Shown in pieces: positions 3,607-28,656 of a stretch of 64,000 bases of DNA. The DNA is taken from the NCBI GenBank assembly GCA_033977065.1, contig JAXCHI010000001.1, forward strand, positions 23,403 through 87,402, written 5' to 3'. The notes below the pieces were generated by a model. That model was not told where the DNA came from and made no database searches. It saw only the letters and a program-made list of their open reading frames with translations. Position numbers and translations under genes: made by a program. Each line of letters opens with the position of its first letter. Positions within the stretch are counted from its first letter, which is position 1. The DNA comes from Candidatus Algichlamydia australiensis. Lineage in GTDB: Bacteria; Chlamydiota; Chlamydiia; Chlamydiales; JAJFMI01.

Positions 3607-3613
3607 TCCAAAT

Positions 3614-11233: not shown

Positions 11234-11329
11234 TCAAATCCAAATACAAGAAACATCATAAACTGCTATTTTTCTAATCTAAGAATTAAAAAACTTAGAA
11301 TTGTAAAAATAATATAAAGAAGAGGAACA

Positions 11330-11806: not shown

Positions 11807-11825
11807 AGTTCAATTTATTAGTGAT

Positions 11826-11865
11826 AGGGCGCTTTCAGCCAAGGATTTAGAGCGCCCTCTCTTTT
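11826..11865 (+). terminator. Probable intrinsic terminator
   Basis: AGGGCGCT...AGCGCCCT stem followed by CTTTT, just after the 11806 stop. Confidence 0.5.
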
Positions 11866-11924
11866 GTGCAGTAATTTTTTAAGAGAAGTTTATCGTTGAA
11901 TAACCATCATATAGCAGAATAAAC

Positions 11925-12194: not shown

Positions 12195-12273
12195 AACTGT
12201 TAATAGTGCTGGTAGTAGGTTAAAAAAGAGGGGAGCTTAGCAACTTTAGATTTAATAGGTAGGAACACTTCAT

Positions 12274-12735
12274 CTACATATTATATTTCATCTCGATTAG
12301 TGATAGACAAAATAGAAAATATGAGATGGAAACCATGCTTACAAAAAGTAATAATACACACGGCATGATAAGACTTCTAACTTTGTTGTGGATACTGAGA
12401 AATTTTTTGCCATTTCCTTTTTCAAAAAACATAGAGATACTGATGATAAGGAAAGGAAAATGTAACATTAAGCATGCGCTTCCTATTAGAGCGGTTACAA
12501 ATCCCAAAATCTTAAGCAAAAGAAAAAAAAAGTACCCGGGGATACTGAGGAGCGATAAAAGCAAAAGTTCTATACGCCCAAAATCTCTCAAATTACCTTT
12601 CAACCTACTCATTAGGTACGATACAACAGCGAGCGTAGCAATCAAGCCCAAGTAATAAAAGTCCAAGATAGAGGGACCTTGAACTAGGGGGGTAAATGCG
12701 GTTAGAAGACCCGGGGTTGTAATCGAAAAAGTCAT
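12274..12735 (-). CDS. Hypothetical membrane protein (about 4 TM)
   Basis: 153-aa ORF with several hydrophobic stretches. Confidence 0.55.
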   Translation of the reverse strand: MTFSITTPGLLTAFTPLVQGPSILDFYYLGLIATLAVVSYLMSRLKGNLRDFGRIELLLLSLLSIPGYFFFLLLKILGFVTALIGSACLMLHFPFLIISISMFFEKGNGKKFLSIHNKVRSLIMPCVLLLFVSMVSISYFLFCLSLIEMKYNM

Positions 12736-12908
12736 TTTAATACGTTCATTAATCTATTGTCTTCCATATACCAAATTATGTTTTTTATAAAAAAGAAGAT
12801 GAAGAAGCTTATGAAATCGTAATGGATGACCAATAAAAACCGAAAACACTTGTCAAAAAACACACTCTTTAGCATCTTTCGTAAAGAAATTACAGAGAGG
12901 ATGTAAAG

Positions 12909-14411
12909 ATGGTTTTTTCAGAGTTTTTTAGAAAGGTTTGCCTCTTTTTGCTTATTCCTTCGGTTTTTCTTCATGCAGTTCCTCAATCTGCTAGTCCAGG
13001 AAGCTGTATCTCTTCATTAGAAGACCCGATTAGGAAAAGTTATTCTTTTACTACCCTTGATAAGTTGTTAGTTGACGATGTTTTAAATTTTATTGATGCC
13101 ATCGAGAAGGGAGCAATTGTTCCGAGTAATTTGCGAGAACTCGAATTGCTGCAAAACATGGTAGTAAACTTTGCAAGGAACGGAGTTCTTTCAAGTGACT
13201 TTTCTACTGCAGGTTGGGTTGAGCAGGACATTTATGAGTTGTTTAATGAATCGTCAGATAACGATTGGTATTTTGATTATTCGGAATACGGTTTTGAAAA
13301 TTACGGGTCTTTTAGTGGGAATTTTGAGCAAGATCGTGAATTTTTGCTTTGTAGTAGTGGAATTAGTAAAAAATGGAAAAAAGCAAAAAGTTTTGTTCGT
13401 AAGCACAAAGCTGCAATTATCGCTGGGGCCGTTATAGTCGTTGCTATTGTGGTAGTCGTTGTAGTCACAGGAGAATCAAGCAGTGTTGGAACTGTGGCAA
13501 CAGGGGTGGGGTCTGTATTGGCAGCAAGTCAATCGGATGATGTTGATCCAGAAACAAGTCAACATGAATCAAGTTATGAGAAATATGATGTTGAACTAGC
13601 TGAATCTTCCCATCTTGAAGAAAGCGACGAATTCATTAAAAAGCTTGCAGAAGAAAAAATCGAACTTTTTAAGGAAGAGGTTAGGAATGAGATCGAATCT
13701 AAAAATGATCAAGAAATTAGAGAAAATCCTGAGAGGTCTTTTAAGGAGAGCTTAAAGAATTTAGGTTCTGTGCTATCTCATGAAATTCTTGACGGTGCTG
13801 CTAAAGTTGCTTCTACTGGACCTGAACTTGCTGAAGAAATTGATGATATTGGCAGAAGACTTTTTCACGATGAAGAAGAGGTAGATATTCCTCTGCTATT
13901 TAATTCTCCTAAAGAAAAATTTAAAGATTGGTTGGCTGCAGCACATGAAAAAATTGATGAAGTCTTTTCAACTGAAGCAGCAAGCAGCTATACTGAAGAG
14001 GCTAAAAGAGCTAGAGCTGACAGTGGGTTAGTTATTAGTGAGTTACCTCCTCCGGGGTCTTGTAAGGTAGGTCGCATTGCACCAACCCAGGCCTCCTCAA
14101 TAAGAGGATGGAAGGTCGGAGATCCAATTAATAATTTGACAAGGGCAGGAAAGGTTCCAAAATGGAGCACAGTTAGAAAGAGATATTGGAAAAATGAAGC
14201 TTTTGCAAAAGGTGCGGAATATGAGCTTGAAAATGTTAAAAGAATGAAAAAAGGACTAGCCCCTAGAAGATTTAATGACGACTTGGGAAAGGCTGAAAGT
14301 ATGGAATTGCATCACATACCCCCACAAAAAGAAGGAGGATTATTTGACGTTATTCCATTGTGGCCTGAAGAACATGCTAAAGTTGACCCTAATAGATACA
14401 CAGGAAAGTAA
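12909..14411 (+). CDS. Secreted polymorphic toxin with C-terminal HNH/EndoVII (LHH-like) nuclease
   Basis: Signal peptide, Val-rich TM segment, acidic middle region. C-terminus ENVKRMKKGLAP...MELHH..PQ...WPEEH matches LHH-type toxin nucleases. Confidence 0.75.
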   Translation: MVFSEFFRKVCLFLLIPSVFLHAVPQSASPGSCISSLEDPIRKSYSFTTLDKLLVDDVLNFIDAIEKGAIVPSNLRELELLQNMVVNFARNGVLSSDFSTAGWVEQDIYELFNESSDNDWYFDYSEYGFENYGSFSGNFEQDREFLLCSSGISKKWKKAKSFVRKHKAAIIAGAVIVVAIVVVVVVTGESSSVGTVATGVGSVLAASQSDDVDPETSQHESSYEKYDVELAESSHLEESDEFIKKLAEEKIELFKEEVRNEIESKNDQEIRENPERSFKESLKNLGSVLSHEILDGAAKVASTGPELAEEIDDIGRRLFHDEEEVDIPLLFNSPKEKFKDWLAAAHEKIDEVFSTEAASSYTEEAKRARADSGLVISELPPPGSCKVGRIAPTQASSIRGWKVGDPINNLTRAGKVPKWSTVRKRYWKNEAFAKGAEYELENVKRMKKGLAPRRFNDDLGKAESMELHHIPPQKEGGLFDVIPLWPEEHAKVDPNRYTGK

Positions 14412-14413
14412 TT

Positions 14414-14896
14414 ATGCCAAATTTTAATAAATTATTTGAGAACTCTAAGGGAAAGCCTATAAATTACAATGGCAAGATTCTTACGAGGTTCGATAATTTT
14501 GCTATTGAAAATGGAGAATCTTTGGTTATTTGCATAGAATCTACAAATAGTAAAAATACACAGGGTGTTGCGGTTGATATTACGGGGAGTTGTATGTTCA
14601 ACGGAAGAGAATGGAATCAAGGGAAAGGTGTTTTTATGGTTTTCTGGGAAAAATCTGAAGTTTATGATCCTAAAAACATTGAATTAAAAATATGTTCTAC
14701 GAAAGGGAGTGTGAAGATTAGAAATATTTGGGAAAGCACAGACCATCGAGGAAGCAGTTTTGTCGATTATGGAAGGTACGGTTCTGCAATGATTTTAGAA
14801 GAGATACCAGGTGGAAAGAAATATTCATGCAATGACTGGACCCCAGATGAAAATTTTGATGATATTATTTTTACTGTGAAAAAGATGGGTGTATAG
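14414..14896 (+). CDS. Putative cognate immunity protein
   Basis: Starts 2 bp after the toxin stop; 160 aa, soluble. Confidence 0.6.
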   Translation: MPNFNKLFENSKGKPINYNGKILTRFDNFAIENGESLVICIESTNSKNTQGVAVDITGSCMFNGREWNQGKGVFMVFWEKSEVYDPKNIELKICSTKGSVKIRNIWESTDHRGSSFVDYGRYGSAMILEEIPGGKKYSCNDWTPDENFDDIIFTVKKMGV

Positions 14897-14947: not shown

Positions 14948-15208
14948 TCATTTTTTTATCACCGAAAAACTCGGAATGAATTCTTCGATTTCGCATTCCA
15001 AAACGTTTGCTATTGTTGCAAGCATCTCGATTGTTACGTTAGATTCACCCCTTTCTATAATACCGATGTAAGTTCTATGGATATCTGTTTCCATGCCGAG
15101 AGCTTCTTGGGAGTACCCCATTTTTTTTCTCTTTTCGCGAATTAGACTTCCAATAGTCTTGCAAAGCGTTTCTTTTTGCTTTTCAGTAAGTTTTTTGCTC
15201 TTCTTCAT
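14948..15208 (-). CDS. XRE/HipB/C-protein-like HTH regulator
   Basis: IREKRKKMGYSQEALG...HRTYIGIIERGESNVTIEML is a classic XRE HTH. Confidence 0.9.
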   Translation of the reverse strand: MKKSKKLTEKQKETLCKTIGSLIREKRKKMGYSQEALGMETDIHRTYIGIIERGESNVTIEMLATIANVLECEIEEFIPSFSVIKK

Positions 15209-15630: not shown

Positions 15631-16335
15631 ATGGAATCAAGTAGACCATCTTTTGGGATTATGAGTGGGGTAGCCACTTTTTTAGGGCTTTCTCCGCATC
15701 TTCTGGTATTATCAGCGCTTTTGGTTTTTAGACCCCCATCTGCGACAACAGGATCAATTGTGATGTTTACAGTTGGGGCAAAGCTTCTTGTTGAATGCGT
15801 CTTTTATCAATTTTTCTCTAATCAAATGAAGAGTCAAAAAATAATGAAAGGTTGGGAGGAAGTCGTTTCAGTACCTTTACTATCTCACCCAAATGTCTCA
15901 CTCTCTATCTTTTTTTATTTTATCGATCATGTATGCGACATACTAATCCTATACAAAGCATTACAAACGCCATTTTATCCTCCACTTATTTTCTTTGTAT
16001 TCCTTGGTTGCCAAGCAGCAGCTTCATATGTTCAGGGTCGGATCTCCGATCTAGTTAGTTTAAAAAAATCACTTTTATTTGCTCTTAGCGCAGCGTTTCT
16101 TGCTCTACTGGGGATAGAATTTGTCGGGATGATTTCGCCGAACTCAAATTCTTTTAGTATATCGACATTACCAAGCAATTTTGCTGGCCTAAATCTATTA
16201 GAACCATCTACTCAAATTTTGATTCTGATGGTAGGGAAAGGTCTTTTTGGAAATATCTCAACATTGTCTAGATCAGCAATTGCTTCAGTAGTTTTTGCAG
16301 AAGCCATGAGAAAATTCAGTAAAAAAGGCGTTTAA
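15631..16335 (+). CDS. MFS-like half transporter
   Basis: Multiple TMs; VQGRISD...LKKSLL resembles MFS motif A; GLFGNISTLSRSAIA. Confidence 0.55.
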   Translation: MESSRPSFGIMSGVATFLGLSPHLLVLSALLVFRPPSATTGSIVMFTVGAKLLVECVFYQFFSNQMKSQKIMKGWEEVVSVPLLSHPNVSLSIFFYFIDHVCDILILYKALQTPFYPPLIFFVFLGCQAAASYVQGRISDLVSLKKSLLFALSAAFLALLGIEFVGMISPNSNSFSISTLPSNFAGLNLLEPSTQILILMVGKGLFGNISTLSRSAIASVVFAEAMRKFSKKGV

Positions 16336-16341: not shown

Positions 16342-16896
16342 ATGAGCTTAAAAAAAGTAATCATTCACATCTACGCTATTTTCTCTCAGTGGCTGAGTAG
16401 GGGAATATTAGGCTTCATCTGTTTCCAAGATGACTCAACAAGGGTTTTAGCATTGTTATTCGCTCTTACTTGGGGGATCGGAAGCATAGTTCAAGGAAAG
16501 CTTTCAGATGAGAAAAGTTCTAGGAAGAAGATTATTTTGATCACGCAATGTTCTCTTGTAGCTTCATGCATCCTTGCGTATTTTGGAATAGTGAGGGGAA
16601 GCAATGAGATTCCAATAGTAATCTTAGCTACGAGCCTTGTTCTAAACGGGGCTTTTGGAAACAGCTCTCCAGCTCTAACAGCTCATATAATGGATTGTGG
16701 AGTTGATCAGAAAAAAGCAATTTCTTGGTTACTGGTCACCAGGCAGTTTGGGTTAGTTGTTGGGATTTTGGTTGGACTACTATCTGCAAAATTAGCATTA
16801 GGTATGACTGTTTTAGCGAACTGTTCATCTCTATTCCTTATGCATAAGTTGTTTGCTACAGAAGCGCTTACTTCAAACCAAAATATAGAGAGCTAA
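16342..16896 (+). CDS. MFS-like half transporter (paralog of the upstream gene)
   Basis: VQGKLSDEKSSRKKII (motif A-like), GAFGNSSPALTAHIMD; about 6 TM. Confidence 0.55.
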   Translation: MSLKKVIIHIYAIFSQWLSRGILGFICFQDDSTRVLALLFALTWGIGSIVQGKLSDEKSSRKKIILITQCSLVASCILAYFGIVRGSNEIPIVILATSLVLNGAFGNSSPALTAHIMDCGVDQKKAISWLLVTRQFGLVVGILVGLLSAKLALGMTVLANCSSLFLMHKLFATEALTSNQNIES

Positions 16897-17997: not shown

Positions 17998-20019
17998 TTG
18001 AAATACTTTGGAAAAATCAAAATAGGGAACTTGATTGAATACCTGAAAATTCATCGAATTTCTGTAAGCTCAAGTTTAAGAGTAGAAGGAATAAAAGATA
18101 CTCTGTTTGCGTGGTTTCTCAATGCTGTTTCTATAGTATATTTTCAAAGCTCAAGTGAGTCAATTCCATACTCTGTAAATTTTGCAACACAATTTTTTTT
18201 CGCAACTGTGGTTATTTTGCTTATTTCTTTTTTCAGAAGCATATTCAAGTTCGGAAATCTGAGTGAAGTTTTGAAATTTTTGAAAATCAATCAAAAAAGC
18301 GAATTTATCAATGAAAAAGGGCACTTGCCACCTGAATCAAGAAAAAAATTAATAGTAACAAGAGCATTATTTGCCACTGTTGGCTACATTGCATACAGTC
18401 TTGCTAGAGTTCTCATTGGAGAAGTTGATAATTCCTCAATATACAGCGCCGATGCATTAGTTTATGCTGTCATGGCTACATGGATATTGAAAGAAAAATA
18501 CTCGAAGCAAGAATGGCTTGGAATAGTAGTTGCCTCTATGGGTGTGCTGTCAGTAATATTCTATGATTTTATTTTTAACAATTGGAGTTTGGCTCTTTCC
18601 GGTTCTGTATTTGGGGTTTTCTCCTCATTATCTTTCGTTATTATATTTTTCTTGACCTCTATTATTATTCAGCATGATCCGCCATTGAGGATTTCATTTT
18701 ATCAGTGTCTTATAGGTTTTTTTGTTTCGTTGCCTCTATTGCTCTACTCTTTAGTATTTGGGGATTTTTCAGGAATATCGAATTTGTGGGCAACTGGCCT
18801 TTTTCAGGCTGTTATCAATGGTGCCCTATATGGTATTTCATTGATTTTCTTTTTTCGTGCATTTCTCTTCACGGAGCCGATCATAATTGCTGTTCTAGGA
18901 CTATCCCTTTTTCCTTTTGTAAGTTTTCTTAGCTGGTTCTCTCAGAATCAAATTCCATCTAGTTTAGATTTTTTAAGCGCAGGATTAATCACTATTGGAG
19001 GAGTGATTTTAATTAGAGGAGAGTATAAAAGAGATAAGCAGTCACAGAATCTATATTCTGCTCCATCTTATCGGGGAAATATAAAAGATCACTTCAAACA
19101 ATTAAAAATAGAATATAACGAAGGGAAGATTGACAAATGGGATTACATGTCAGAAAGACACGAGTTTAATAAGTTATTATTTGAATTTTCTGAAGAGTTA
19201 ATTAAAACAGACATCAATGAAATTACAATAGATAGAAAAGGCGTTTTCTTTAGGTTTGATCCATTGAATATTGTACTCCAAAGTGATGGAGGATGTGGTA
19301 CTCCTCCTTTGACGGTCTTAAATTTTGGGGAGTACGAAAGAGAAGAATCGTACTGGATATATGAGTTAGTAACAGATGGAGATGTTATATTAGATTTAGG
19401 TGCCAACGTGGGGTGGTATAGTATTAACCTTTCTAAAAGATTTCCTAATTCAAAAATACTAGCTTTTGAGCCAATAGATGAAACATATGATTATTTATTA
19501 AAGAATATTTCACTCAATAAAATTGCTAACGTAAAGACTTTTAATTTTGGCCTATCAGATCAGGAAAAAATAGAATCGTTCTTTTATTTTAGGGGTGGTT
19601 CAGCAATTTCTTCGATAAAGAATTTAATAGATCATGCTGGATCAAGAAAGAAGAATTGTATAGTAAAAAAACTTGATGATGTCATTCAAAATGAAGAGCT
19701 AGATGAGGTTTCGTTCGTTAAGATGGATATAGAAGGAGCTGAACTATTGGCCTTAAAAGGTTCATTGTCAACTATAAATAAATATTATCCAATTATTTTC
19801 GCTGAATTGTATCAAGTGTGGTGTAGAAAATTTTTATATGACGCTAATGATGTGCTTAAAATTTTAAAAAGTTATGGCTATCAATGCTTCAATATAGTAG
19901 AAAAGAAGCTAGTTAAGACAAACAAAATTCCGTTTGAAAATGAGAATTATTATAATTATATTTTTCTACATGAAAAGAACCACTTAGATAAAATTAAAAA
20001 ATATATTGGAGAATCATAG
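17998..20019 (+). CDS. EamA/DMT transporter fused to FkbM-family SAM methyltransferase
   Basis: About 10 TM N-terminal half with ILKEKYSKQEWLGIVVASMGV (DMT signature). C-terminal half has ILDLGANVGWYS, LAFEP, FVKMDIEGAE (FkbM). No stop between the halves. Start codon uncertain. Confidence 0.85.
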   Translation: MKYFGKIKIGNLIEYLKIHRISVSSSLRVEGIKDTLFAWFLNAVSIVYFQSSSESIPYSVNFATQFFFATVVILLISFFRSIFKFGNLSEVLKFLKINQKSEFINEKGHLPPESRKKLIVTRALFATVGYIAYSLARVLIGEVDNSSIYSADALVYAVMATWILKEKYSKQEWLGIVVASMGVLSVIFYDFIFNNWSLALSGSVFGVFSSLSFVIIFFLTSIIIQHDPPLRISFYQCLIGFFVSLPLLLYSLVFGDFSGISNLWATGLFQAVINGALYGISLIFFFRAFLFTEPIIIAVLGLSLFPFVSFLSWFSQNQIPSSLDFLSAGLITIGGVILIRGEYKRDKQSQNLYSAPSYRGNIKDHFKQLKIEYNEGKIDKWDYMSERHEFNKLLFEFSEELIKTDINEITIDRKGVFFRFDPLNIVLQSDGGCGTPPLTVLNFGEYEREESYWIYELVTDGDVILDLGANVGWYSINLSKRFPNSKILAFEPIDETYDYLLKNISLNKIANVKTFNFGLSDQEKIESFFYFRGGSAISSIKNLIDHAGSRKKNCIVKKLDDVIQNEELDEVSFVKMDIEGAELLALKGSLSTINKYYPIIFAELYQVWCRKFLYDANDVLKILKSYGYQCFNIVEKKLVKTNKIPFENENYYNYIFLHEKNHLDKIKKYIGES

Positions 20020-20624
20020 TGGACGATATCGAAAGAATATATGAGTTTATAAAAACTTCAGAAAAACTCAAAAGCGAAATGCGACATAGTTGGGTCTCAT
20101 GTGGTAGAAATGAGAGTGTTGCTGAACATAGTTGGCGTACAAGCCTCATGGTAATGTTAATCTCTCCTTTTTTAAAAAACAAAATAAATACTGAAAGAGC
20201 TCTAAGATTGGCAATTATTCATGATATTGTTGAAATGATAACAGGTGATACGCCATATCACCAATTCGATTCATCAAATTATGGTAGACAACAAATAAAA
20301 CAATCAGAATTGGAAGGTGCTAAAAAAATAAAAAGTGTATTGCCAAATTTGGTTGGCAAAGAAATATTTGACCTTTGGTTTGAATTCGAAAATTTATCTA
20401 GTGAAGAAGCAAAATTTGTTAATGCTTTAGATAAACTTGAAGTCTGCATACAGCATGCACAGTCGGACTGCAGCACCTGGCTTGAGTCTGAAAGAGAAAG
20501 CATTTCACCTTTTATAAATTATTTGAAGGGTAATTGTGATTCTGAATTGATCCTGAAAACATTAGAAAAATTAGTAATCAGTGATTTGAAAACAAAGCAC
20601 GCTTCGGAAATAAAATTTAAATAG
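20019..20624 (+). CDS. HD-domain phosphohydrolase (HDDC2/YfbR-like nucleotidase)
   Basis: RHSW...ESVAEHSWR...IHDIVEMITGD...EAKFVNALDKLE; start overlaps the upstream stop. Confidence 0.88.
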   Translation: MDDIERIYEFIKTSEKLKSEMRHSWVSCGRNESVAEHSWRTSLMVMLISPFLKNKINTERALRLAIIHDIVEMITGDTPYHQFDSSNYGRQQIKQSELEGAKKIKSVLPNLVGKEIFDLWFEFENLSSEEAKFVNALDKLEVCIQHAQSDCSTWLESERESISPFINYLKGNCDSELILKTLEKLVISDLKTKHASEIKFK

Positions 20625-21291
20625 TTCCAAGGTTATTTTTAAGCAGATACAATCTGTTATCAAATTCTGACTCGTTATTTATTATTTTCCACAGTTTCCA
20701 ATTATAAAGGTATGAATCGAATAGATGTTCAAGTAATTCGTAATTCCCTTTATTCGAAAACGCAATAATTATCTCAGTTTCTTTATGAGAATAATACTTT
20801 GCCTGGGCAAGAAATTTACGCACACTTTTAAAAGAGGGGTCGTAAAAGGCATAGGCTAGAGGGACTTCAATTTCAACCATATCATCGTGGAATGGAATAT
20901 TAAAAACAATGACATCAAACAATTGCTTCGGAACACTGTCAAAACAATTACTGCGTAGCACTTCCCCATCAAGGCCATGAGTTTGTAAATTAGCCTCGGC
21001 ATTTTTCACTGCAATTCTATTTATATCTACGAACGTTGCTGACAGAGCCTTATTGAGCAAACTATGAATTCCAACAACTCCAATCCCACAACCCATATCA
21101 CAAACCGCCTTACCCTTTAAGGGCGGAAGAGAAGTAAGTAGAAAGTCAGTGGTTCGAAACCTTTCGCTTGGATAAACACCGGGGAACACTTGAAATTCTA
21201 ACTCTAAAATTTTTACTTTTCGTATGTTTTCGCATTTTAAAATATCATCTACTATCCCGTGTGGATCCAACTTGAAATACGGAATTGCCAT
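20617..21291 (-). CDS. Class I SAM-dependent methyltransferase (HemK/MTS-like)
   Basis: VFPGVYP, CDMGCGIG, VDIN, FDVIVFNIPF (NPPF-like). Confidence 0.85.
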   Translation of the reverse strand: MAIPYFKLDPHGIVDDILKCENIRKVKILELEFQVFPGVYPSERFRTTDFLLTSLPPLKGKAVCDMGCGIGVVGIHSLLNKALSATFVDINRIAVKNAEANLQTHGLDGEVLRSNCFDSVPKQLFDVIVFNIPFHDDMVEIEVPLAYAFYDPSFKSVRKFLAQAKYYSHKETEIIIAFSNKGNYELLEHLFDSYLYNWKLWKIINNESEFDNRLYLLKNNLGTI

Positions 21292-21526: not shown

Positions 21527-23023
21527 ATGGGAAGCGAACAAATGAGTGGTGAAAATAGGTCTTTATTAACAACTGCAGAGACAGATTCAAATATTTTAAA
21601 CTATTTCGTAAATAGTACGATAAATAACTCTAATCCAATTGAATCAAGACAAAAAAAAATTACAAGAGTTGCAGCTCAAATTGGGGCTTCAACATTTTTG
21701 GCTCTTTCTAGCATACCGTTTATTAGGCCATCCTTAGAATTTGCAGGAGACGCAACACCGCTAAATATAGCTTTAGGGTGGTACTTAGTGGGTTGTAATC
21801 TGACTTCTTTTGGAATTTTAGATGCGTATAGCATATCCAATATGATTGGTGAATATATCCGTCCTTTATCTTCTGATGAAGTAGAAATGTTTTCTGTATC
21901 AACAAACAGACGCGTTGATCTTCTATTGAGAATAGGCTCTGTTAGTACAGCATGCATTCTTAGCATACCCAGAGCATATGTTGGTTATGAATATAATAAT
22001 GATAGCGCTCTTTTTGCTATTTTAGCAGCATCAGGTTCTATACCAATCCCTTCATATTCTACTTACCTCACTCTAAACCATATTAAAAGCAATGCTTTTT
22101 TAACTGGTGTTGAATCTAGATTACAGGAATCTAAAGCTGAAGTTATTAATCAGATAAACTCGTTTTGTGCTTCTTTGCCTTTGCAAACGGAAGAGGAATT
22201 AAAAGAAGTACTTAGTGAGTTCAATGCTTTGCAACAGGTGGAAAGTACTAGTCAAAAAGTATCAAGGCTTTTTCAAATATTACAAAACAATACTCAATCT
22301 TCTAAAGATTATTCAAATGAAAAATTAATAAAACTAGGTAAATATAGTGTTAAGGTAGTGTCATGTGGATTATCTCTTTCAGTAATTGGTTATTTAGGGG
22401 TTGTTAGTTACAATTTTGTTGAATCAATATCAGATAGTACAATTTGTGGTGTTGCCAGTGGAACCATAGTTTCTGCTTGCAGTAGTTATTTAACAACTAA
22501 GTTATTATTGAACGCATCTACATCTTATTATTCTTCAGCCGTAAATTTGTTTCGTTGTAGTACAAAAAAAACATGGGGTCTAAGGAACAATAAAAAAATT
22601 ACTATTGCTAGTAAACTGATTGCGAGTATTATAAATGCTTTTGCTTTTGCTCCAACTCTTCAAGTAATTAGTGATAATTTTTCGGGTTTTTCTCGAACTT
22701 ACATGTACTCTACAGTACCTTTATCTTTTTATATAATTTGTTCGCACCTAAGTTTGATGTTAGTTGATGAAGCTATGGAGCAATACTCATACCACATGAA
22801 TACAGATGCTATAAGTGAAATTATAAATTTTAAGAAAAGACTTGTCAAATTTGCTAATGTGGTAGACAAATCTCCTCTTATTGAATATGCTAAATTTATC
22901 AAAATTTTATCAGAAAATGAGATGTCTGAACTAGGTAATAGAATATTATTAACTCAAGGTGCTTTGGATTACTACTTGTCTAAAAAAACTGAGACCTTTG
23001 CTTTAGCAGATAGCGATGTCTGA
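21527..23023 (+). CDS. Hypothetical multi-pass membrane protein (possible effector)
   Basis: 498 aa; two clusters of hydrophobic helices around a soluble helical linker. Confidence 0.6.
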   Translation: MGSEQMSGENRSLLTTAETDSNILNYFVNSTINNSNPIESRQKKITRVAAQIGASTFLALSSIPFIRPSLEFAGDATPLNIALGWYLVGCNLTSFGILDAYSISNMIGEYIRPLSSDEVEMFSVSTNRRVDLLLRIGSVSTACILSIPRAYVGYEYNNDSALFAILAASGSIPIPSYSTYLTLNHIKSNAFLTGVESRLQESKAEVINQINSFCASLPLQTEEELKEVLSEFNALQQVESTSQKVSRLFQILQNNTQSSKDYSNEKLIKLGKYSVKVVSCGLSLSVIGYLGVVSYNFVESISDSTICGVASGTIVSACSSYLTTKLLLNASTSYYSSAVNLFRCSTKKTWGLRNNKKITIASKLIASIINAFAFAPTLQVISDNFSGFSRTYMYSTVPLSFYIICSHLSLMLVDEAMEQYSYHMNTDAISEIINFKKRLVKFANVVDKSPLIEYAKFIKILSENEMSELGNRILLTQGALDYYLSKKTETFALADSDV

Positions 23024-23149: not shown

Positions 23150-23452
23150 TTAACTGTACCGGCTAGAAAATGCATCAAGTACAGACTCAACCTGAAGACC
23201 AAACTCATTTGGTTCGTCATGTGCATCAATGCCTTTGCTAGTAAATAAATTCATCAATTCGTCAATAATTAGGTCAGCTTGTTGCTCCGTAAGGGTTACA
23301 TTGTAAATAGATTTGCTTCCATTATAAACATGATTAGAAAATAAGTTGTTGATTTTTTTTCTAACCGCTTCGTTTTCAACATTCTCTATGAGAAAAATTA
23401 GCTCTGTTCTAGTTAGCTTATATTTTTTTTCGTCCATAGCAAGCACCTTCAC
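23150..23452 (-). CDS. Putative immunity protein for the Rhs toxin
   Basis: Small acidic ORF overlapping the Rhs stop; ...GIDAHDEPNEFGLQVESVLDAF. Confidence 0.65.
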   Translation of the reverse strand: MKVLAMDEKKYKLTRTELIFLIENVENEAVRKKINNLFSNHVYNGSKSIYNVTLTEQQADLIIDELMNLFTSKGIDAHDEPNEFGLQVESVLDAFSSRYS

Positions 23453-26400
23453 TTGTTTATAAGAGTTTCTCTAGTTTGAACAACTCCACTTCGATTCCAA
23501 ACCTGTACACCTCTGGCTTTTCCAAAAGCTGTAATAATTTTTCCTTCAGAGTTGAGTACTACAGTAGCTTCTTTTCCGACGTATCTTACTGCTTTATCAC
23601 TTTGGAATACAATTTTTTTTGGAAATTGTACAGCATCTAAAATTGCTTTTGCATTAACTCCTCTTCCCCCATCTCTACCTATAGCTTGATTTAATCCATG
23701 TTTTTTATAACCTGTAATTTTGTTAGAAATACAACTCTTTTCATGAATATAGATCGAAGGTGTTTGTCCAATAGGTGATCTTGCGTATGTTGCGGCCATG
23801 ACCGGAACTGATCGAGATCCAGCTAGGAGAACTTGAGTCCCTCCTGCAGTAAAGGCTACTGTAGTCAGGTCGTCTATGAATGCTGCTGCGTTGGGGTCAA
23901 TTCCTGACATCTCCATGAGCTGACAACTTCCAGTTCTCATTCTCTGATTATATGCTATTGTCGAGATGCCAGAAAATGCTTGATCTAGTCCATGCATTAA
24001 TATGGGCCATCCTACAACTGATCCAGCACCCAAAGTTTTTAGGATAATTGATCCACCTATCCAAGCTTCGAAACAACCACTTGCAAATTTCATGCTCCCT
24101 TGAACAAAAGGGCTTCCTATAGCGTTACCTACTTTCTGAGCAAAAGTGAGGTTGGAATTTGCATGAAACCAGTCTTCTTTTTTTCCAATTGGAGGCAAGG
24201 GGGAGAAGTAATTGAAATGTGGAGAATAGGTGTTGAGATATACGAGTGCTTCTGAAGTTTGTGCAGTGCTGCGAATTTTGTCTTCGAGGCCATAGAAGTC
24301 AAAGTGAGTCAAAGGATTATTGTTAAGGTAGGCGTAGAGATTGGGGCCTTCGGTGTAGCTTTTGGGATCGGGTGTAAGAAAGCGACCGAGGGTGGGTGAG
24401 TAGTAACGACGGCCAAAGTAGACGAGGTTGTGGTCGGTGCGTTTCGATTGGTAGCGCCAGGGGTTGTGGGTCGTTGTGGTTTGTTCTTCACCAAAGGCAG
24501 TGAAATAATAGCTTTCTAAAGGTTGCTTAGTGTGGATGTCAATAAGGGTTGTAATGTCACCTGTGAGGCTGTGGAGGGGGAGGTAGGTTTGGTGATTAAG
24601 TTCGATGAGGATGGAGGCGCCGATTTCGGCGCCGTGACCTAGGCCTAGGATGCGGAGCTGGGTTATGGTGCCGTTTTCTACAAGGCCAATTTCATTATCT
24701 CCATCGTAGATGTAGTATTGTGGGGGGTGTTCTATCCATTCGTTGTTTTGTTTGTGGGAGGTTTGTTGGGAGGTGCGACGGTGCCACGGGTCGTAGGTAT
24801 AGGTTGTTTTTGTTATTGGGGTTTTGATTTGGATGAGACGATCTAAGGCATCGTATTTATACTTAATATTAGTTGAATTGGTTTCTGCACTTGTGGGGTT
24901 TCCGTTTGGATCGTATTCAAAGTTAAAGTCATCGGTAGTTGAGATTTGGTTTAAAGATGTAATTTCATACGAGTCGTCATTTTTTGAGAGGCGGTTGTGG
25001 AGGGAGTCATAGGTGTATTGGTCTTTGTTTTCTTGTGTGAGTTGATTGAGGTCGTTGTAGGTGTAGGTAGTGGTTTGGTTGTCTAGGATGCGGCTAGTGA
25101 GGTTACCGGCTTTATCAAAGCTTTTATGGGCTTCTTTTTGGTAGGGGCTTTTGCGCTTTATTTCACAATTTAAGAGGTCATAGGTATGGGTTTGGGTTCC
25201 AAGGTTTGCAATGAGGGTTTCGGTTTGGGGTGTGTGGTGTTCATTGTATTGGGTGTAGGTGTGGGTGTAGCTATTGAAGGTGATGGAGGTGAGGTGGTAG
25301 GGATCATAGGTGTAGGTAGCAGTCCGGTTATCAGGGAAAGTTAAGGTTTTACGGCGATTATCAGCCGAATAAGATGAGGTTAAGGTAAGCCCGTTATTAA
25401 GTGTTTCTGTCAGGAGGTTGTCATAGGAGTCGTAGGTACGGGTTGTTGTTGTGTTGTGGGTGTGGTCGTTAGCTTTGATGCAACGATCAAGGTTGTCATA
25501 GGTAAAGGTATAGTGAAGGTTTGGAGCAGTAGTATCTATGTGGCGACCTTTTTCATCGTAGGTTTTTTCGATGAGGGTACCGTCAGGTTTTGTTATGGTT
25601 TGTTCTTGTCCATCGGGTGTGTAGGTGTAAATGGTTGTTTTTTCTCCAGACTCTGTTTGGGATGTGAGTCTGTTCATTTTGTCATAGGTATAAGCGAGGG
25701 TAGTTGTGCGGGCGGGACCGTTGGGATCGAAGATGGTGATGGTGTGTGTGAGGAGGTTGCCTGAGGAATCTCTTTCGTAGTGTTCTTTGTGGAGGGGGGT
25801 GCCTGTTTTGGAAAGGTGTGTTGTTGCAAGGAGCTGGCCGTGGCTGTTGTAGGTCTGTTCTAGTTGGCGGTTTTCTGGGTCTAGGGTGGTTTTAGTGAGT
25901 TGGTTGTAGGTGATGGTTGTGGTGTGGCCAAGAGGATTAGTGTGTGAGGTTAGGCGGTTTAAAGGGTCGTATTCGTAGATGTCTGTAGAGTCGCCTTTTG
26001 TGATGGTGTTGGCGTTGCCATGAGCATCGTAGGTGTAGGTAGTTTCGCTGTAAATGGTGGGGTTTTCAGCTAAATCTATCTCGCTCTCTGCAAGGATTTG
26101 GTTTTGGGAGTCGTAGGTGTAGAGGGTGCGCTGTTCGTTTTGGGTTTTTGTTTCGATTCGAGAGAGGGTGTCATAGGTGTAGGTGGTGGTTTGATCAAGA
26201 AAGGTCTCTTGGGTGAGGCGGCCGGCTGGGTCGTAGGTGTAGGTAGTGAGGCGGTTTCCTTGGTCGAGGTGGCTGAGTTTATGAAAGCTGTTGTAAGTGG
26301 TGCTCTCTTCTGAAAGGAGTTTATTTGTGGACGAAAGGAGTTTTTTGGTTAGGGGGCGGTTTGCGTAATCGTAGGTGGTGTAGATTTGACGTGAACATTT

Positions 26401-28656
26401 ATCTACCTGTTTGATCAAGTTTCCGGCGGGATCGTAGGTAAAGGTTTCAGTTGTTTGATCGGGATAGGTTGTTTGGATGATTTGGTTGCGAACGTTGTAG
26501 TGATGGGTTGTGCGGTTTCCTCTTGGATCGATGATTTCAATTGGGTTATTTAAGCTATCGTAGGTGGTTTTTGTGGTGGCGATTTCGTTGCTTTCTAGTG
26601 TGAGGTTGCTGCGTGTGTCGTATTGGTATTGAGTCGTGAGGCCGTAGGGGTCTGTTGTTGTGATTCGTTGGCCTAATGGATTGTAGGTATGCTGGGTTGT
26701 ATGGGAGATGTTTGGGGCCCCGGTTTGTGTTTCAGTGAGAAGGTTGCTTTCTTGATCGTAGGTGTATTGGGTGGTGAGGTTTTTGGCGGGCTCGCTTTTG
26801 GTTATGCACTGATCAAGGGTGCTGTAGGTGTAGCTGGTCATTTCGCCAAGTGGATTGGTTTCTTGGATGAGGTTGCCGTGGAGGTCGTAGGTATAGGTTA
26901 GGGTATAGCAGAGGGTGTTATTCGCGTCGAATATCTCTTTGGTTTCAACTTTGCATTGCTGGTTATAGGTGAGTTGGGTTGTTTTTAGGGTCTTCTCTTT
27001 AGAGGATTTGGGGTCCCAGTAGCTCTCTCGGATTTTGATGGGCAGGTGTGTGGCGGGGCCTTCTTGGGCGAGTTCGTAGCGTGTGATGGTGCGTTCTGTA
27101 ACGCTTTCTAAGTCCGTGGGATCTTCGCTGTTGCCATCATCGAGAATTTTTTCATTTAGGTTGTTGTATTCATCGTATGAAAAGAATTCACGAGTAACGA
27201 TTTGTCCTTCGTTTGAGGTAAGTTTTGATGTGGGAAGGTTTGTCTTTTTATAATAAGTAATTTTTGTGGTTTTTCCAGAGGGTTCTTGGATGAGGATGGG
27301 GAAATTTTCGTAGTTGTATTCGTAGGTTGTGGTAGTAGAGGGACCGCTAATTGGGAGTTCGTTTTTATCTAATTCGATAGGCGATGGGTCGTTTCCAGAT
27401 AGGTTGCCCCAGAGGGTTTCTGTGGAGATGTTGTGGTGGTGGTCGTAGGTGTATGTGATGGCTTTGATACAGTTGCCATTAGGATCGAATGTGAGGATAG
27501 CAAGGAGGTTACCGAGTACTGTGTTGCGCGTTCCGTAAATGTAGCGCGTTTCGCTAGCATCGGGATGGACAATTTTGTAGGGGCGGTTATTACCTCTTGG
27601 CTGGTAGGAGGTTGTGTTACCCAAACAGTCAGTTACAAGGGTTTGCTTGGGATTTTTCCCTGCTTTTTGCTTGTATTTGAATGTGTAGATGGGGGCGCTT
27701 GATGCTGATGTGTAGAGCTCTTGCACTTTGTCAAATGCAAGTTTTGCGTGTGTAAGCGGTCCCTGATTGGTCAGCTGTCTTGTAATGCTGTGTGGGGTTG
27801 TGATGGCGATCTCTTCAGGAGTGTGTTCTGAGACAGCTCTGGTGAGTGTTCCGTTATTAAAGTAGTAGGTAATGCTCTGCCCATTGCTCGTTTCTATGGT
27901 TTTGATACCTGGTCTGTTACTGATCGTAATCCAGCCATATTCGATTTTTTTATTTTCTTTATCGTTAGTGCCTGTAATTAAAATTTTTCGTAAATGACTC
28001 TTGCTATCATATTCGTAGAAGATTTTATTCCCATTAGGAAGTATTTCTTCCTTTAACAAAAAGAGTTTACCAGCAGCGATGCGTTTATTTGGCAGGTCTA
28101 CTCTTGAAGATCTCTTTTTGCTGATTTTAGTGCAGTTGTAGATTCTCTTTGTCCCATCTCCAAAGGAAATTTCATAAGATTTTTTCTTTTTGTTGTATTG
28201 ACCTTTGATGTTTCTAGTATTTGTTTGGCCGCTAATCACTCCTCTGTGGGTGTTGACTAGGTGGGCGGTGTGGGTTTTGTAGTCGAGCATATAGGATGAC
28301 CTATCACTCTCTATGGGTCTGAGTTTGATCGGAAGTCCTAGCTCATCTTTAAAGTGCAGCTTTTTTTGTCTCACTTTTTTCTTTTGCCTGCCGTCTTTGT
28401 TGATGACTCCCACTTTTTGTATCTCTTCAAGTCTTACATGGGGGAAAAACTTCCAATCTGTTTGGGATGTGTAGATTCGTGTGATGGGATAAGGTTGAGC
28501 GCAATTGAGAATCAGATCAGTTTCAACAGCAAAGTATTCGCCTGTGATCGCGTTAACGCAGCCAGCTACGGTGAAATTGGGATCGTTGTCGAGAGGAGTG
28601 TCGACTGTTGAGAAAAGGGTCGTTAGAATTAGGGCAAAAATAGAGAGTATTTTCAT
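23449..28656 (-). CDS. Rhs/YD-repeat polymorphic toxin with signal peptide; C-terminal colicin E5/BECR-like RNase candidate
   Basis: VNAITGEY, many YTYD repeats, Rhs core (YFGRRYYSPTLGRFLTPDP...NLYAYLNNNPLTHFDFYGL). C-terminus KHGLNQAIGR...ATVVLNSEGKIITAF. Confidence 0.92.
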   Translation of the reverse strand: MKILSIFALILTTLFSTVDTPLDNDPNFTVAGCVNAITGEYFAVETDLILNCAQPYPITRIYTSQTDWKFFPHVRLEEIQKVGVINKDGRQKKKVRQKKLHFKDELGLPIKLRPIESDRSSYMLDYKTHTAHLVNTHRGVISGQTNTRNIKGQYNKKKKSYEISFGDGTKRIYNCTKISKKRSSRVDLPNKRIAAGKLFLLKEEILPNGNKIFYEYDSKSHLRKILITGTNDKENKKIEYGWITISNRPGIKTIETSNGQSITYYFNNGTLTRAVSEHTPEEIAITTPHSITRQLTNQGPLTHAKLAFDKVQELYTSASSAPIYTFKYKQKAGKNPKQTLVTDCLGNTTSYQPRGNNRPYKIVHPDASETRYIYGTRNTVLGNLLAILTFDPNGNCIKAITYTYDHHHNISTETLWGNLSGNDPSPIELDKNELPISGPSTTTTYEYNYENFPILIQEPSGKTTKITYYKKTNLPTSKLTSNEGQIVTREFFSYDEYNNLNEKILDDGNSEDPTDLESVTERTITRYELAQEGPATHLPIKIRESYWDPKSSKEKTLKTTQLTYNQQCKVETKEIFDANNTLCYTLTYTYDLHGNLIQETNPLGEMTSYTYSTLDQCITKSEPAKNLTTQYTYDQESNLLTETQTGAPNISHTTQHTYNPLGQRITTTDPYGLTTQYQYDTRSNLTLESNEIATTKTTYDSLNNPIEIIDPRGNRTTHHYNVRNQIIQTTYPDQTTETFTYDPAGNLIKQVDKCSRQIYTTYDYANRPLTKKLLSSTNKLLSEESTTYNSFHKLSHLDQGNRLTTYTYDPAGRLTQETFLDQTTTYTYDTLSRIETKTQNEQRTLYTYDSQNQILAESEIDLAENPTIYSETTYTYDAHGNANTITKGDSTDIYEYDPLNRLTSHTNPLGHTTTITYNQLTKTTLDPENRQLEQTYNSHGQLLATTHLSKTGTPLHKEHYERDSSGNLLTHTITIFDPNGPARTTTLAYTYDKMNRLTSQTESGEKTTIYTYTPDGQEQTITKPDGTLIEKTYDEKGRHIDTTAPNLHYTFTYDNLDRCIKANDHTHNTTTTRTYDSYDNLLTETLNNGLTLTSSYSADNRRKTLTFPDNRTATYTYDPYHLTSITFNSYTHTYTQYNEHHTPQTETLIANLGTQTHTYDLLNCEIKRKSPYQKEAHKSFDKAGNLTSRILDNQTTTYTYNDLNQLTQENKDQYTYDSLHNRLSKNDDSYEITSLNQISTTDDFNFEYDPNGNPTSAETNSTNIKYKYDALDRLIQIKTPITKTTYTYDPWHRRTSQQTSHKQNNEWIEHPPQYYIYDGDNEIGLVENGTITQLRILGLGHGAEIGASILIELNHQTYLPLHSLTGDITTLIDIHTKQPLESYYFTAFGEEQTTTTHNPWRYQSKRTDHNLVYFGRRYYSPTLGRFLTPDPKSYTEGPNLYAYLNNNPLTHFDFYGLEDKIRSTAQTSEALVYLNTYSPHFNYFSPLPPIGKKEDWFHANSNLTFAQKVGNAIGSPFVQGSMKFASGCFEAWIGGSIILKTLGAGSVVGWPILMHGLDQAFSGISTIAYNQRMRTGSCQLMEMSGIDPNAAAFIDDLTTVAFTAGGTQVLLAGSRSVPVMAATYARSPIGQTPSIYIHEKSCISNKITGYKKHGLNQAIGRDGGRGVNAKAILDAVQFPKKIVFQSDKAVRYVGKEATVVLNSEGKIITAFGKARGVQVWNRSGVVQTRETLINK

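What the first reader, a model, noticed from the sequence alone, without database searches (positions are those of the whole stretch)
17998..21291. EamA transporter-FkbM methyltransferase fusion with coupled HD hydrolase and a second methyltransferase: possible SAM-scavenging and methylation module
Seen: one uninterrupted 673-aa ORF joins a DMT permease to a complete FkbM methyltransferase. An HD nucleotidase-like gene overlaps its stop, and a convergent HemK-like MTase overlaps the HD gene end. Known: Rickettsia and Chlamydia import host S-adenosylmethionine through DMT/EamA-family carriers. Inference: either the fusion channels imported SAM directly to its methyltransferase, or the three enzymes make and export a methylated, dephosphorylated nucleoside or small molecule.
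Basis: partly seen in the sequence, partly recalled or inferred. Interest (0 to 1): 0.75.

Follow-up and report, generated by a model that had tools for sequence, protein, structure and literature searches.

The report
Chlamydial plasmid transporter–methyltransferase fusion protein
A real but rare gene on a chlamydia-type conjugative plasmid joins a membrane transporter to a sugar-type methyltransferase; the proposed three-gene module with its two neighbours is not conserved, and what the protein transports is still unknown.

Summary
One 673-aa ORF (17998-20019) joins a complete 10-helix DMT/EamA permease to a complete FkbM methyltransferase. An HD hydrolase gene shares one base with its stop codon, and a convergent MTS-family methyltransferase overlaps the HD gene by 8 bp.

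The fusion is not an artefact. 18 other full-length versions exist (30-49% identity per half); the only named one is chlamydial. It is rare: 12 representative clusters among 1.84 billion.

The window is a Simkania pSn-like conjugative plasmid, and the fusion is low-GC cargo on it.

The three-gene module is not conserved:
- The HD gene's nearest named relatives are Bacillaceae.
- The MTS gene is RsmC-like and belongs to a separate 63-member family.
- Neither has a homologue on pSn or shares a contig with another fusion.

What recurs is different:
- Relatives of the methyltransferase half sit in NDP-deoxysugar operons in 50 of 58 loci.
- In chlamydiae, stand-alone copies of each half lie beside the same remote S-adenosylhomocysteine-hydrolase-like protein.

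Best reading (0.4): transport coupled to cytoplasmic methylation of a nucleoside- or nucleotide-sugar-like metabolite. SAM import is neither shown nor excluded.

The parts
17998..19047 (+). Residues 1-350 of the fusion: a 10-helix DMT/EamA permease. The N-terminus and the end of helix 10 are cytoplasmic. Family motifs are an N-terminal H..I......R..GI, VDNS, D152, DPPLR, YQC and F..AF..TE.
   Evidence: Pfam EamA, 2 stretches. AF2 model with 10 helices. Atlas structure TM 0.75-0.85 to EamA clusters. Foldseek TM by target 0.64-0.81 to LicB, Vrg4, YddG, TPT and CST. K+R counts of 5, 4 and 2 on the N-terminus and even loops, 0 on odd loops. Invariant columns.
19048..20019 (+). Residues 351-673 of the fusion: a short low-confidence linker, a helical/beta 'lid' extension (about 360-460) and an FkbM Rossmann core (466-629). 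Predicted cytoplasmic.
   Evidence: PF05050 at 58.3 bits, TIGR01444 at 91.9 bits. The domain model has pLDDT 95.9. The window's protein keeps all 15 columns that are invariant across the 55 subfamily members, which include stand-alone copies from sugar operons.
20019..20624 (+). HD_3 phosphohydrolase of the HDDC2/YGK1/YfbR 5'-nucleotidase group. Probably translationally coupled to the fusion. A local addition, not a conserved partner.
   Evidence: HD_3 at 143 bits. PDB: HDDC2 3.7e-21, YGL101W 2.5e-11, YfbR 5.6e-6. GGAG 9 nt before the GTG start. Best named relatives are Bacillaceae. No homologue on pSn.
20617..21291 (-). Single-domain MTS-family methyltransferase resembling the RsmC catalytic domain, with motif NIPFHD. 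An adjacent gene, probably unrelated to the fusion.
   Evidence: PF05175 at 76.3 bits. RsmC 2pjd at 1.2e-13, with NPPFHD aligned to NIPFHD. 63 relatives at about 50% identity; one is named Simkaniaceae, on a 1.17-Mb contig. None shares a contig length with a fusion.
21527..23023 (+). 498-aa membrane protein of no known family. The only neighbour also found next to the related stand-alone transporter on Simkania plasmid pSn.
   Evidence: BLASTP 9e-30 over residues 32-487 to pSn SNE_RS00615 (497 aa) (tblastn). No Pfam or NCBIfam hit. Atlas scores of 0.77 or less, which is within noise.

Best explanation
The 673-aa protein is a genuine two-domain inner-membrane protein: a DMT permease with a SAM-dependent FkbM-type methyltransferase hanging from its last helix into the cytoplasm. 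The two halves form an evolutionarily coupled pair, fused in most known members. I infer that the permease carries the methyl acceptor or the methylated product rather than the cofactor. That substrate is most likely a polar nucleoside-like or nucleotide-sugar-like metabolite, either methylated in the cytoplasm and exported, or imported and then methylated.

The gene is accessory cargo on a pSn-like conjugative plasmid of a chlamydia-like bacterium. The HD 5'-nucleotidase-type gene is a lineage-specific, probably co-translated addition that could supply a dephosphorylated acceptor. The RsmC-like methyltransferase is an unrelated neighbour.

Shown:
- the domain architecture and its conservation;
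- the topology;
- the plasmid context;
- the gene associations.

Inferred:
- the substrate class;
- the direction of transport;
- any role for the HD protein.
For: **Architecture and conservation**
-. Pfam finds both EamA and FkbM in 9 of the 9 further fused or near-full-length representatives P0198-P0206.

**Coupling of the two halves**
- Stand-alone copies of each half are interspersed among the fused ones, with matching partners in the two trees: P0003 with P0224-clade/P0217, and P0203/P0200 with P0235/P0209.

**Topology**
- The positive-inside pattern and 10 helices place the methyltransferase in the cytoplasm.

**Methyltransferase subfamily**
- Of 58 GTDB loci whose enzyme shares the lid extension, 50 have an NDP-sugar enzyme within 6 kb: epimerase/reductase 48, 4,6-dehydratase 34, nucleotidyltransferase 33, DegT/E1-like 32, ThDP YerE-like 29.
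- P0299 is a natural epimerase-methyltransferase fusion.
- The operon type matches acyl-branched deoxysugar clusters (PMC9306805, passages read).

**Chlamydial contexts**
- On pSn the transporter subfamily forms an operon with an AHCY-like protein and an SDR.
- In 3 of 3 chlamydial loci the stand-alone methyltransferase follows an AHCY-like gene and two 4-TM proteins.
- A distant AHCY-like homologue on a Streptomyces plasmid sits with a methyltransferase, a phosphoribosyltransferase and a HAD phosphatase.
- All the enzyme types seen across these contexts act on ribose or sugar moieties of nucleosides or nucleotide sugars. This last point rests on general knowledge of the families.
Against: - No substrate evidence is direct.
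- In the quick tree the fusion's methyltransferase halves branch outside the sugar-operon clade (SH-aLRT 95). Function transfer therefore crosses a deep split at 28-40% identity.
- No sugar-pathway gene lies in the window.
- The AHCY-like gene is absent from the 64-kb window.
- The AHCY-like proteins score far below AHCY family cut-offs (29.5 bits against 275), so adenosine binding is unproven.
- The HD gene is not conserved with the fusion.
- Structure searches do not discriminate substrates: LicB, Vrg4, YddG, TPT and CST score alike, and the methyltransferase matches only an uncharacterised FkbM at TM 0.43.
- The genomic contexts of the other 18 fusions could not be fetched.
Confidence: 0.4

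Rival explanations
1. SAM supply line. The permease half imports host SAM, or exchanges SAM for SAH as CTL843 does, and hands it to its own fused methyltransferase. The methyl acceptor is a separate cytoplasmic molecule.
For: - CTL843 and Rickettsia RP076 are two-EamA DMT carriers of SAM, and most chlamydiae lack metK and sahH (PMC3104491, passages read).
- A methyltransferase (fused) and an AHCY-like protein (pSn operon) are what the transporter subfamily is found with, and SAM/SAH is what those two enzyme types share.
- The AHCY-like gene also accompanies the stand-alone methyltransferase in 3 of 3 chlamydial loci.
- An invariant Asp (D152) in helix 4 would suit a cationic substrate. This last point is inference.
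Against: - A CTL843 homologue is reported in all Chlamydiales, whereas this family is rare (12 representative clusters) and is plasmid cargo.
- The pSn operon pairs the transporter with an SDR and has no methyltransferase in the operon.
- The AHCY-like proteins fail AHCY cut-offs. By my recalled AHCY numbering they have lost Glu156, His301 and His353.
- No NCBIfam or Pfam model ties the permease to any characterised carrier.
- Similarity to CTL843 itself could not be measured.
Confidence: 0.2
2. Membrane-anchored glycan methylation. The DMT half acts as an anchor or as a flippase for a lipid-linked sugar, and the methyltransferase O-methylates a cell-envelope glycan precursor at the membrane.
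For: - FkbM relatives are sugar O-methyltransferases in surface-glycan clusters: a weak Pfam match to V. cholerae RfbT at 8.5e-6, and FkbM genes in flagellin-glycosylation islands (PMC4875605, passages read).
- The subfamily sits in NDP-sugar operons with GT2 genes in 8 of 58 loci.
- In chlamydiae the stand-alone enzyme is also translationally coupled to membrane proteins.
Against: - No glycosyltransferase or sugar-activation gene lies in the window or next to the chlamydial stand-alone copies.
- Invariant polar residues inside the helices (D152, Q236, R231, E293) suggest a real substrate site rather than an anchor.
- 10-TM DMT lipid flippases are not established (recalled).
Confidence: 0.12
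3. A three-enzyme pathway. The fusion, the HD nucleotidase and the convergent MTS methyltransferase together make and export a doubly modified, dephosphorylated nucleoside.
For: - Tight packing: a 1-nt stop/start overlap with an RBS, and an 8-bp convergent overlap.
- The HD protein is of the 5'-nucleotidase type.
- The MTS protein carries an N-methylation-type NIPFHD motif aligned to RsmC's NPPFHD.
Against: - 0 of 9 other fusion contigs share a contig length with any listed HD hit (119 others listed of 173) or MTS hit (62 others); 5 of those 9 contigs are 13 kb or longer.
- Neither gene has a homologue on pSn.
- 0 of 80 GTDB loci carry either gene.
- The MTS family (63 members) is far more widespread than the fusion, and its one named member lies on a 1.17-Mb contig.
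- The MTS gene is on the opposite strand.
Confidence: 0.06

Closest known systems
Chlamydia trachomatis CTL843 (SAMHT) and Rickettsia prowazekii RP076 SAM carriers
   Same: Two-EamA, 10-TMS DMT/DME-type permeases of obligate intracellular bacteria (PMC3104491, passages read). The window's permease half has the same domain make-up and helix count.
   Different: Those carriers are stand-alone, and a CTL843 homologue is reported in all Chlamydiales. This protein is fused to an enzyme, rare, and plasmid-borne. Sequence relatedness to CTL843 or RP076 could not be measured here.
Stand-alone FkbM methyltransferases (about 305-320 aa) of NDP-deoxysugar / acyl-branched-sugar operons (YerE/YerF-type clusters)
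   Same: Same lid-plus-FkbM architecture. 28-40% identity over residues about 360-670. All 15 subfamily-invariant residues are kept.
   Different: They have no transporter, AHCY-like or HD partner (0 of 77 non-chlamydial loci). The fusion halves branch outside their clade. None of these enzymes has been characterised biochemically as far as I saw; PMC9306805 calls its cluster's methyltransferase putative.
Simkania negevensis plasmid pSn EamA transporter SNE_RS00600
   Same: Same DMT subfamily: 31% identity over residues 1-313 with the VDNS, DPPLRI, YQ and AF..TE motifs shared. It nests among the fused forms in the tree. It also sits on a related conjugative plasmid, next to a homologue of the 498-aa protein.
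   Different: It has no methyltransferase domain. It is operonic with an AHCY-like protein and an SDR oxidoreductase.
LicB choline importer, Vrg4/CST nucleotide-sugar transporters, YddG exporter (solved DMT structures)
   Same: The 10-helix DMT fold, TM by target 0.64-0.81.
   Different: 12-17% identity. No family-level sequence match. None carries a fused enzyme.

Membership tests
DMT superfamily, 10-TMS two-EamA (DME-type) permease | Two EamA repeats scoring above the Pfam gathering score | tested here: met
   PF00892, 2 stretches, 44.6 bits against a cut-off of 28.2.
DMT superfamily, 10-TMS two-EamA (DME-type) permease | Ten transmembrane helices in the DMT fold | tested here: met
   10 helices in the AF2 model. 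Atlas TM 0.75-0.85 to EamA clusters. Foldseek TM by target 0.64-0.81 to solved DMT structures.
FkbM methyltransferase family (PF05050 / TIGR01444) | Full-length match above curated cut-offs, with the SAM-binding and K.D.EG.E motifs kept | tested here: met
   58.3 bits against 22.7, covering profile 1-172 of 173. TIGR01444 at 91.9 against 37.7. D466, G468, G472, E491, K575, D577, E579, G580 and E582 are invariant or nearly so.
Chlamydial SAM/SAH transporter SAMHT (CTL843 orthologues) | Stand-alone gene present in all Chlamydiales | tested here: not met
   This family is fused and rare (12 full-length representative clusters of 1.84 billion proteins) and is plasmid cargo. The universality of CTL843 homologues comes from PMC3104491.
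Chlamydial SAM/SAH transporter SAMHT (CTL843 orthologues) | 34-38% identity to CTL843, as in chlamydia-like homologues; SAM transport shown | not testable with these tools
   No CTL843 or RP076 sequence was available in any open collection. Transport needs an experiment.
Nucleotide-sugar transporter / TPT families | Sequence-family match (Pfam TPT or NST models, TIGR00803/00817) | tested here: not met
   No such model at E of 0.01 or better. Only fold-level similarity to Vrg4 and CST.
NDP-deoxysugar operon FkbM clade | Placement inside the clade, with NDP-sugar genes nearby | tested here: not met
   The fusion halves branch outside the 31-row clade (quick tree). No sugar-pathway Pfam domain is found in the window's ORFs.
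YfbR-type 5'-deoxynucleotidase (HD gene) | Equivalog score | tested here: not met
   NF003009 at 36.5 bits against 122. Membership of HD_3 and YfbR-like at Pfam level is met: 143.1 and 55.1 bits.
HemK/PrmC or RsmC (third gene) | Equivalog score | tested here: not met
   TIGR03534 at 44.3 against 199.1; hemK_fam at 36.9 against 115.5; RsmC NF007023 at 64.6 against 295. Only the MTS domain PF05175 is met.
Conserved three-gene module (fusion + HD + MTS) | Co-location in other genomes | tested here: not met
   0 of 80 loci. None on pSn. 0 of 9 fusion contigs share a contig length with HD or MTS hits. This is a weak test, because the contexts themselves could not be fetched.
S-adenosylhomocysteine hydrolase (the AHCY-like neighbours of the stand-alone halves) | Equivalog score | tested here: not met
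   NF004005 at 29.5 bits against 275; TIGR00936 at 27.4 against 497.6. Remote homology only: PDB E of 1e-9 over residues 16-347.

The most novel reading that the evidence does not exclude
Chlamydiae carry a previously undescribed, mobile 'modify-and-move' toolkit for an adenosyl- or nucleoside-type metabolite. Its parts are a DMT permease, an FkbM O-methyltransferase and an AHCY-fold NAD enzyme, variously joined by an SDR, an HD nucleotidase or a pair of 4-TM proteins. In the fused form, methylation is mechanically coupled to transport. That would mean either vectorial methylation (a group-translocation-like step) or synthesis and export of a methylated nucleoside into the host cell as a small-molecule effector.
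Probability: 0.12. Interest if true: 0.8.

Novelty: new variant of a known kind. Interest (0 to 1): 0.5.

Why it matters
Obligate intracellular bacteria live by exchanging metabolites with their host, and few of their transporters have known substrates. A permease physically fused to an enzyme is an unusually direct clue that transport and chemistry are coupled. The fused partner also narrows the candidate substrates, so one heterologous expression experiment could define a new chlamydial transport activity.

That the gene travels on a conjugative plasmid alongside effectors, toxins and an ATP/ADP translocase suggests it is an adaptive, exchangeable trait. The three-way association with an AHCY-like protein is a testable lead on SAM/SAH or nucleoside handling in organisms that mostly lack metK and sahH.

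Tried and rejected
- **Assembly artefact or chance ORF:** rejected.
- **Conserved three-gene module:** rejected as far as it could be tested.
- **Anti-phage defence system:** PADLOC gave only a generic methyltransferase-domain match to mad2 (59 bits for the MTS gene, 22 bits for the fusion). The nearby HTH ORF matched only generic control-protein models.
- **Window's 201-aa upstream membrane protein related to the Rhabdochlamydia 4-TM proteins:** no similarity, E > 1.
- **4-TM pair as a cryptic DMT:** hhalign probability 24.8%, and no Pfam family. Rejected.
- **498-aa protein:** Atlas hits of 0.77 or less (XopX, SseG) are within the tool's noise.
- **Structure searches:**
  - The full-length model (pLDDT 73, pTM 0.53) gives no trustworthy domain orientation.
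  - PDB neighbours do not discriminate substrates.
  - A PDB sequence search with A1 matched only the SAM-motif region.
- **megablast of window 1-25000 against plasmids:** no match.
- **Promoter/terminator scan:** 23 sites against 17.3 ± 4.4 expected, uninformative.
- **Literature:**
  - 'FkbM' + 'EamA': 0 papers.
  - 'EamA' + 'methyltransferase' + 'Chlamydiae' + 'fusion': 2 papers. I read passages of PMC3104491, which describe CTL843 and not a fusion; PMC5615194 was seen only in the listing.
  - 'Methyltransf_21' + 'EamA': 1 paper, on a dinoflagellate, listing only.
  - 'adenosylhomocysteinase' + 'Simkania': 0 papers.
  - Searches gave nothing used.
- **Not possible:**
  - As a result, the neighbourhoods of the other 18 fusions, the organisms carrying them, and any comparison with CTL843 stayed unchecked.
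Full report
**1.

One search lists three ORFs:
- 17998-20019 (+), 673 aa, TTG start.
- 20019-20624 (+), 201 aa, GTG start.
- 20617-21291 (-), 224 aa.

The fusion's TAG stop shares its last base with the GTG start of the second gene, and a GGAG lies 9 nt upstream. The second and third genes overlap convergently by 8 bp.

Domain evidence for the long ORF:
- Pfam finds two EamA stretches (44.6 bits, cut-off 28.2) and a complete FkbM domain at residues 466-629 (profile 1-172 of 173; 58.3 bits, cut-off 22.7).
- NCBIfam TIGR01444 scores 91.9 bits against 37.7.

The second gene is an HD_3 phosphohydrolase (143 bits). Its closest solved relatives are HDDC2, yeast YGL101W and YfbR.

The third gene is an MTS-family methyltransferase. 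'HemK-like' overstates it, because every HemK/PrmC and RsmC model is far below its cut-off. The closest solved relative is the RsmC catalytic domain, where NPPFHD aligns to NIPFHD.

**2. The fusion is real, conserved and rare**

- A word-indexed search found 9 other full-length proteins: 34-42% identity, 98-99% coverage, 673-734 aa. One is named as from a Chlamydiae bacterium.
- An exhaustive profile search of 1.84 billion representatives listed 12 full-length fused clusters and 3 truncated ones. It also listed stand-alone versions of each half and other architectures.
- Pfam confirmed EamA plus FkbM in 9 of the 9 representatives P0198-P0206.
- Across 10 aligned fusions, 68 columns are invariant. 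They include the SAM-binding and K.D.EG.E motifs and polar residues inside the helices: D152, R231, Q236 and E293.
- None of the papers found by three text searches describes the architecture. Details are under Tried and rejected.

**3. Anatomy**

- The AF2 model has ten helices, a low-confidence linker at residues 347-402, and then a Rossmann domain.
- Lys+Arg counts are 5, 4 and 2 on the N-terminus and even-numbered loops and 0 on odd-numbered loops. Both ends of the permease are therefore cytoplasmic, and the methyltransferase works in the cytoplasm.
- The permease half matches EamA clusters structurally (TM 0.75-0.85). It matches LicB, Vrg4, YddG, TPT and CST about equally (TM by target 0.64-0.81), so the fold does not reveal the substrate.
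- The methyltransferase half alone models at pLDDT 95.9. Its only family-level structural neighbour is an uncharacterised FkbM, 2py6, at TM 0.43.

**4. The setting is a conjugative plasmid of a chlamydia-like organism**

The window encodes:
- plasmid backbone genes: ParA, DnaB, DsbB, TraD, a MobA/AAA_30 relaxase, a type IV coupling protein, TraG and TraH;
- a TLC ATP/ADP translocase;
- UCH, U-box/ankyrin and ankyrin proteins;
- RHS and DNase-type polymorphic toxins.

tblastn against the whole Simkania negevensis plasmid pSn matches the backbone: DnaB 52%, relaxase 43%, coupling protein 35%, TraG 28% and TraH 31%.

There is no nucleotide-level match in PLSDB, and no PLSDB record holds the fusion (0 records covering 80% or more).

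The fusion region is lower in GC than the backbone. Values are 0.342 for the permease part, 0.295 for the methyltransferase part and 0.325 for the HD gene, against about 0.39-0.40 for backbone genes. This suggests cargo.

**5. The three-gene module is not conserved**

- The HD protein's best named relatives are Bacillaceae, at about 50% identity over 76% of the protein. No chlamydial name appears among the 120 hits listed of 173.
- The MTS protein has 63 relatives at about 50% identity and full length. One is named Simkaniaceae, on a 1.17-Mb contig.
- Neither has a homologue on pSn at E of 1e-4 or better.
- Neither has a homologue in any of the 80 GTDB loci at E of 1e-5 or better.
- As an indirect test, I compared contig lengths. 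The window's three proteins all report a longest contig of 87,402. None of the 9 other fusions' contig lengths (5 of them 13 kb or more) recurs among the HD or MTS hits. This test is weak, because the contigs themselves could not be read.
- PADLOC finds no defence system.

**6. What the methyltransferase half is related to**

All match only residues about 340-670.

In 58 of them the enzyme shares the lid extension. Of these 58, 50 have an NDP-sugar enzyme within 6 kb:

| Neighbour type | Loci (of 58) |
|---|---|
| Epimerase/reductase | 48 |
| 4,6-dehydratase | 34 |
| Nucleotidyltransferase | 33 |
| DegT/E1-like | 32 |
| ThDP ALS/YerE-like | 29 |
| Aldolase + acetaldehyde dehydrogenase | 14 |
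| Split transketolase | 12 |

- This is the gene set of acyl-branched 3,6-dideoxyhexose pathways. Passages of PMC9306805 describe the YerE/YerF steps and a related cluster with a putative SAM methyltransferase.
- P0299 is a natural epimerase-methyltransferase fusion.
- The window's enzyme keeps all 15 columns invariant across 55 subfamily members.
- Against simple transfer of function, a quick IQ-TREE tree puts the sugar-operon enzymes in one clade (SH-aLRT 95). The chlamydial stand-alone copies sit beside it, and the fusion halves fall outside it. That tree's careful search did not finish.

**7. What recurs in chlamydiae**

- pSn carries a stand-alone member of the same permease subfamily, SNE_RS00600 (31% identity, family motifs shared). 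It nests among the fused forms in a FastTree tree.
- That pSn permease is the last gene of an operon that also encodes an unannotated 408-aa protein and an SDR. The operon runs divergently from a 497-aa protein that is homologous to the window's 498-aa ORF (BLASTP 9e-30).
- The 408-aa protein is a remote relative of S-adenosylhomocysteine hydrolase: PDB E of 1.7e-9, but NCBIfam 29.5 bits against a cut-off of 275.
- It is 39% identical (E 7e-91) to the 371-aa ORF next to the stand-alone methyltransferase in a Rhabdochlamydia locus. That ORF aligns to AHCY-like protein 3gvp over residues 16-347.
- The arrangement [AHCY-like, opposite strand][4-TM][4-TM][methyltransferase] is present in 3 of 3 chlamydial loci and in 0 of 77 others. 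The window itself has no AHCY-like gene.
- So each half of the fusion, when it stands alone in chlamydiae, is linked to the same rare protein family. In PLSDB only 9 of 72,556 plasmids hold a near-full-length relative of it.
- One distant relative, on a Streptomyces plasmid, lies in an operon with a class I methyltransferase, a phosphoribosyltransferase and a HAD phosphatase. The Legionella plasmid copy has no informative neighbours.
- The 4-TM pair is not a detectable DMT relative (hhalign probability 24.8%).

**8. Interpretation**

The permease and the methyltransferase are a coupled pair. They are fused in most members, and in a few the halves appear as separate proteins with matching tree positions. 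Adjacency of those split halves is unverified.

The partners seen across the contexts are a sugar-type O-methyltransferase, an AHCY-fold NAD enzyme, an SDR, a 5'-nucleotidase-type HD protein and a transporter. They fit best with the tailoring and movement of a nucleoside-like or nucleotide-sugar-like metabolite, and I put this at 0.4.

The SAM/SAH-carrier reading (0.2) gains something from the AHCY-like link and from the CTL843 precedent. It is weakened in four ways:
- A CTL843 homologue exists in all Chlamydiales (PMC3104491).
- This family is rare and mobile.
- The pSn operon has an SDR and no methyltransferase.
- The AHCY-like proteins fail AHCY cut-offs.

The substrate, the direction of transport and any role for the HD protein are inferences, not results.

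**9. Verdict**

Both domains belong to known families. The architecture and its association with an AHCY-like protein appear undescribed, so this is a new variant of a known kind. The finding is real and moderately interesting. The 'SAM-scavenging three-gene module' as written is only partly supported.

Noticed in passing
window 1-12800 and 51900-62200: The window is part of a pSn-like F-type conjugative plasmid: ParA, DnaB, DsbB, TraD, a 1551-aa MobA/AAA_30 relaxase, a coupling protein, TraG and TraH. Identity to Simkania pSn proteins is 28-68%, with no nucleotide-level match in PLSDB.
   Followed up: partly
window 29831-31333 (-): A full-length TLC ATP/ADP translocase (Pfam 541 bits) is carried on the plasmid. 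This is an energy-parasitism gene as mobile cargo.
   Followed up: no
window 12909-14896 (+) and 23150-28656 (-): Two polymorphic-toxin cassettes flank the finding. One is a 500-aa protein with a colicin/pyocin-DNase/LHH-type C-terminus followed by a 160-aa probable immunity gene; both have two homologous copies on pSn. The other is a 1735-aa RHS protein with a 100-aa downstream ORF. The RHS gene has markedly higher GC (0.445) and strong GC skew.
   Followed up: partly
window 31456-32592 (-), 46762-48129 (-), 50328-51887 (+): Eukaryote-like effector candidates: a UCH-type deubiquitinase domain, a U-box plus ankyrin protein, and an ankyrin-repeat protein.
   Followed up: no
window 15631-16335 and 16342-16896 (+): Two adjacent membrane ORFs of 234 and 184 aa. 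Only the second shows a weak, sub-threshold MFS_1 match (25.1 bits against 33.4). Possibly a split or decaying MFS transporter.
   Followed up: no
L001 5454-8957; L002 5415-8954; L003 5351-8924: A conserved chromosomal cluster in Rhabdochlamydia and Simkaniaceae: an AHCY-like gene, divergent from two paralogous 4-TM proteins of no known family and a stand-alone FkbM methyltransferase, with overlapping starts and stops. The flanking genes differ (pheT versus aroC/aroA), so the cluster behaves as a unit.
   Followed up: partly
L081 2758-3138 (pSn) and L085 2193-2573 (Legionella plasmid): A small MazG-type nucleotide pyrophosphohydrolase lies 3-5 kb from the AHCY-like gene on both plasmids. This may be coincidence among plasmid cargo.
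   Followed up: no
L081 9618-11982 (-) (pSn): Two tandem 376-aa proteins ending in a K1-capsule-lyase C-terminal domain (Pfam 96-99 bits) sit directly beside the pSn EamA gene, followed by a 326-aa unknown protein and a class I methyltransferase.
   Followed up: no
window 14948-15208 (-): An 86-aa HTH_3 protein matches PADLOC 'control protein' models of restriction-modification systems (47.9 bits). No restriction enzyme was identified nearby.
   Followed up: no
window 55739-57568: A 112-aa fragment of a DNA/RNA non-specific endonuclease lies next to a DUF772 transposase. pSn has an annotated full-length endonuclease gene (771 bp), so the window copy may be truncated by the insertion.
   Followed up: no
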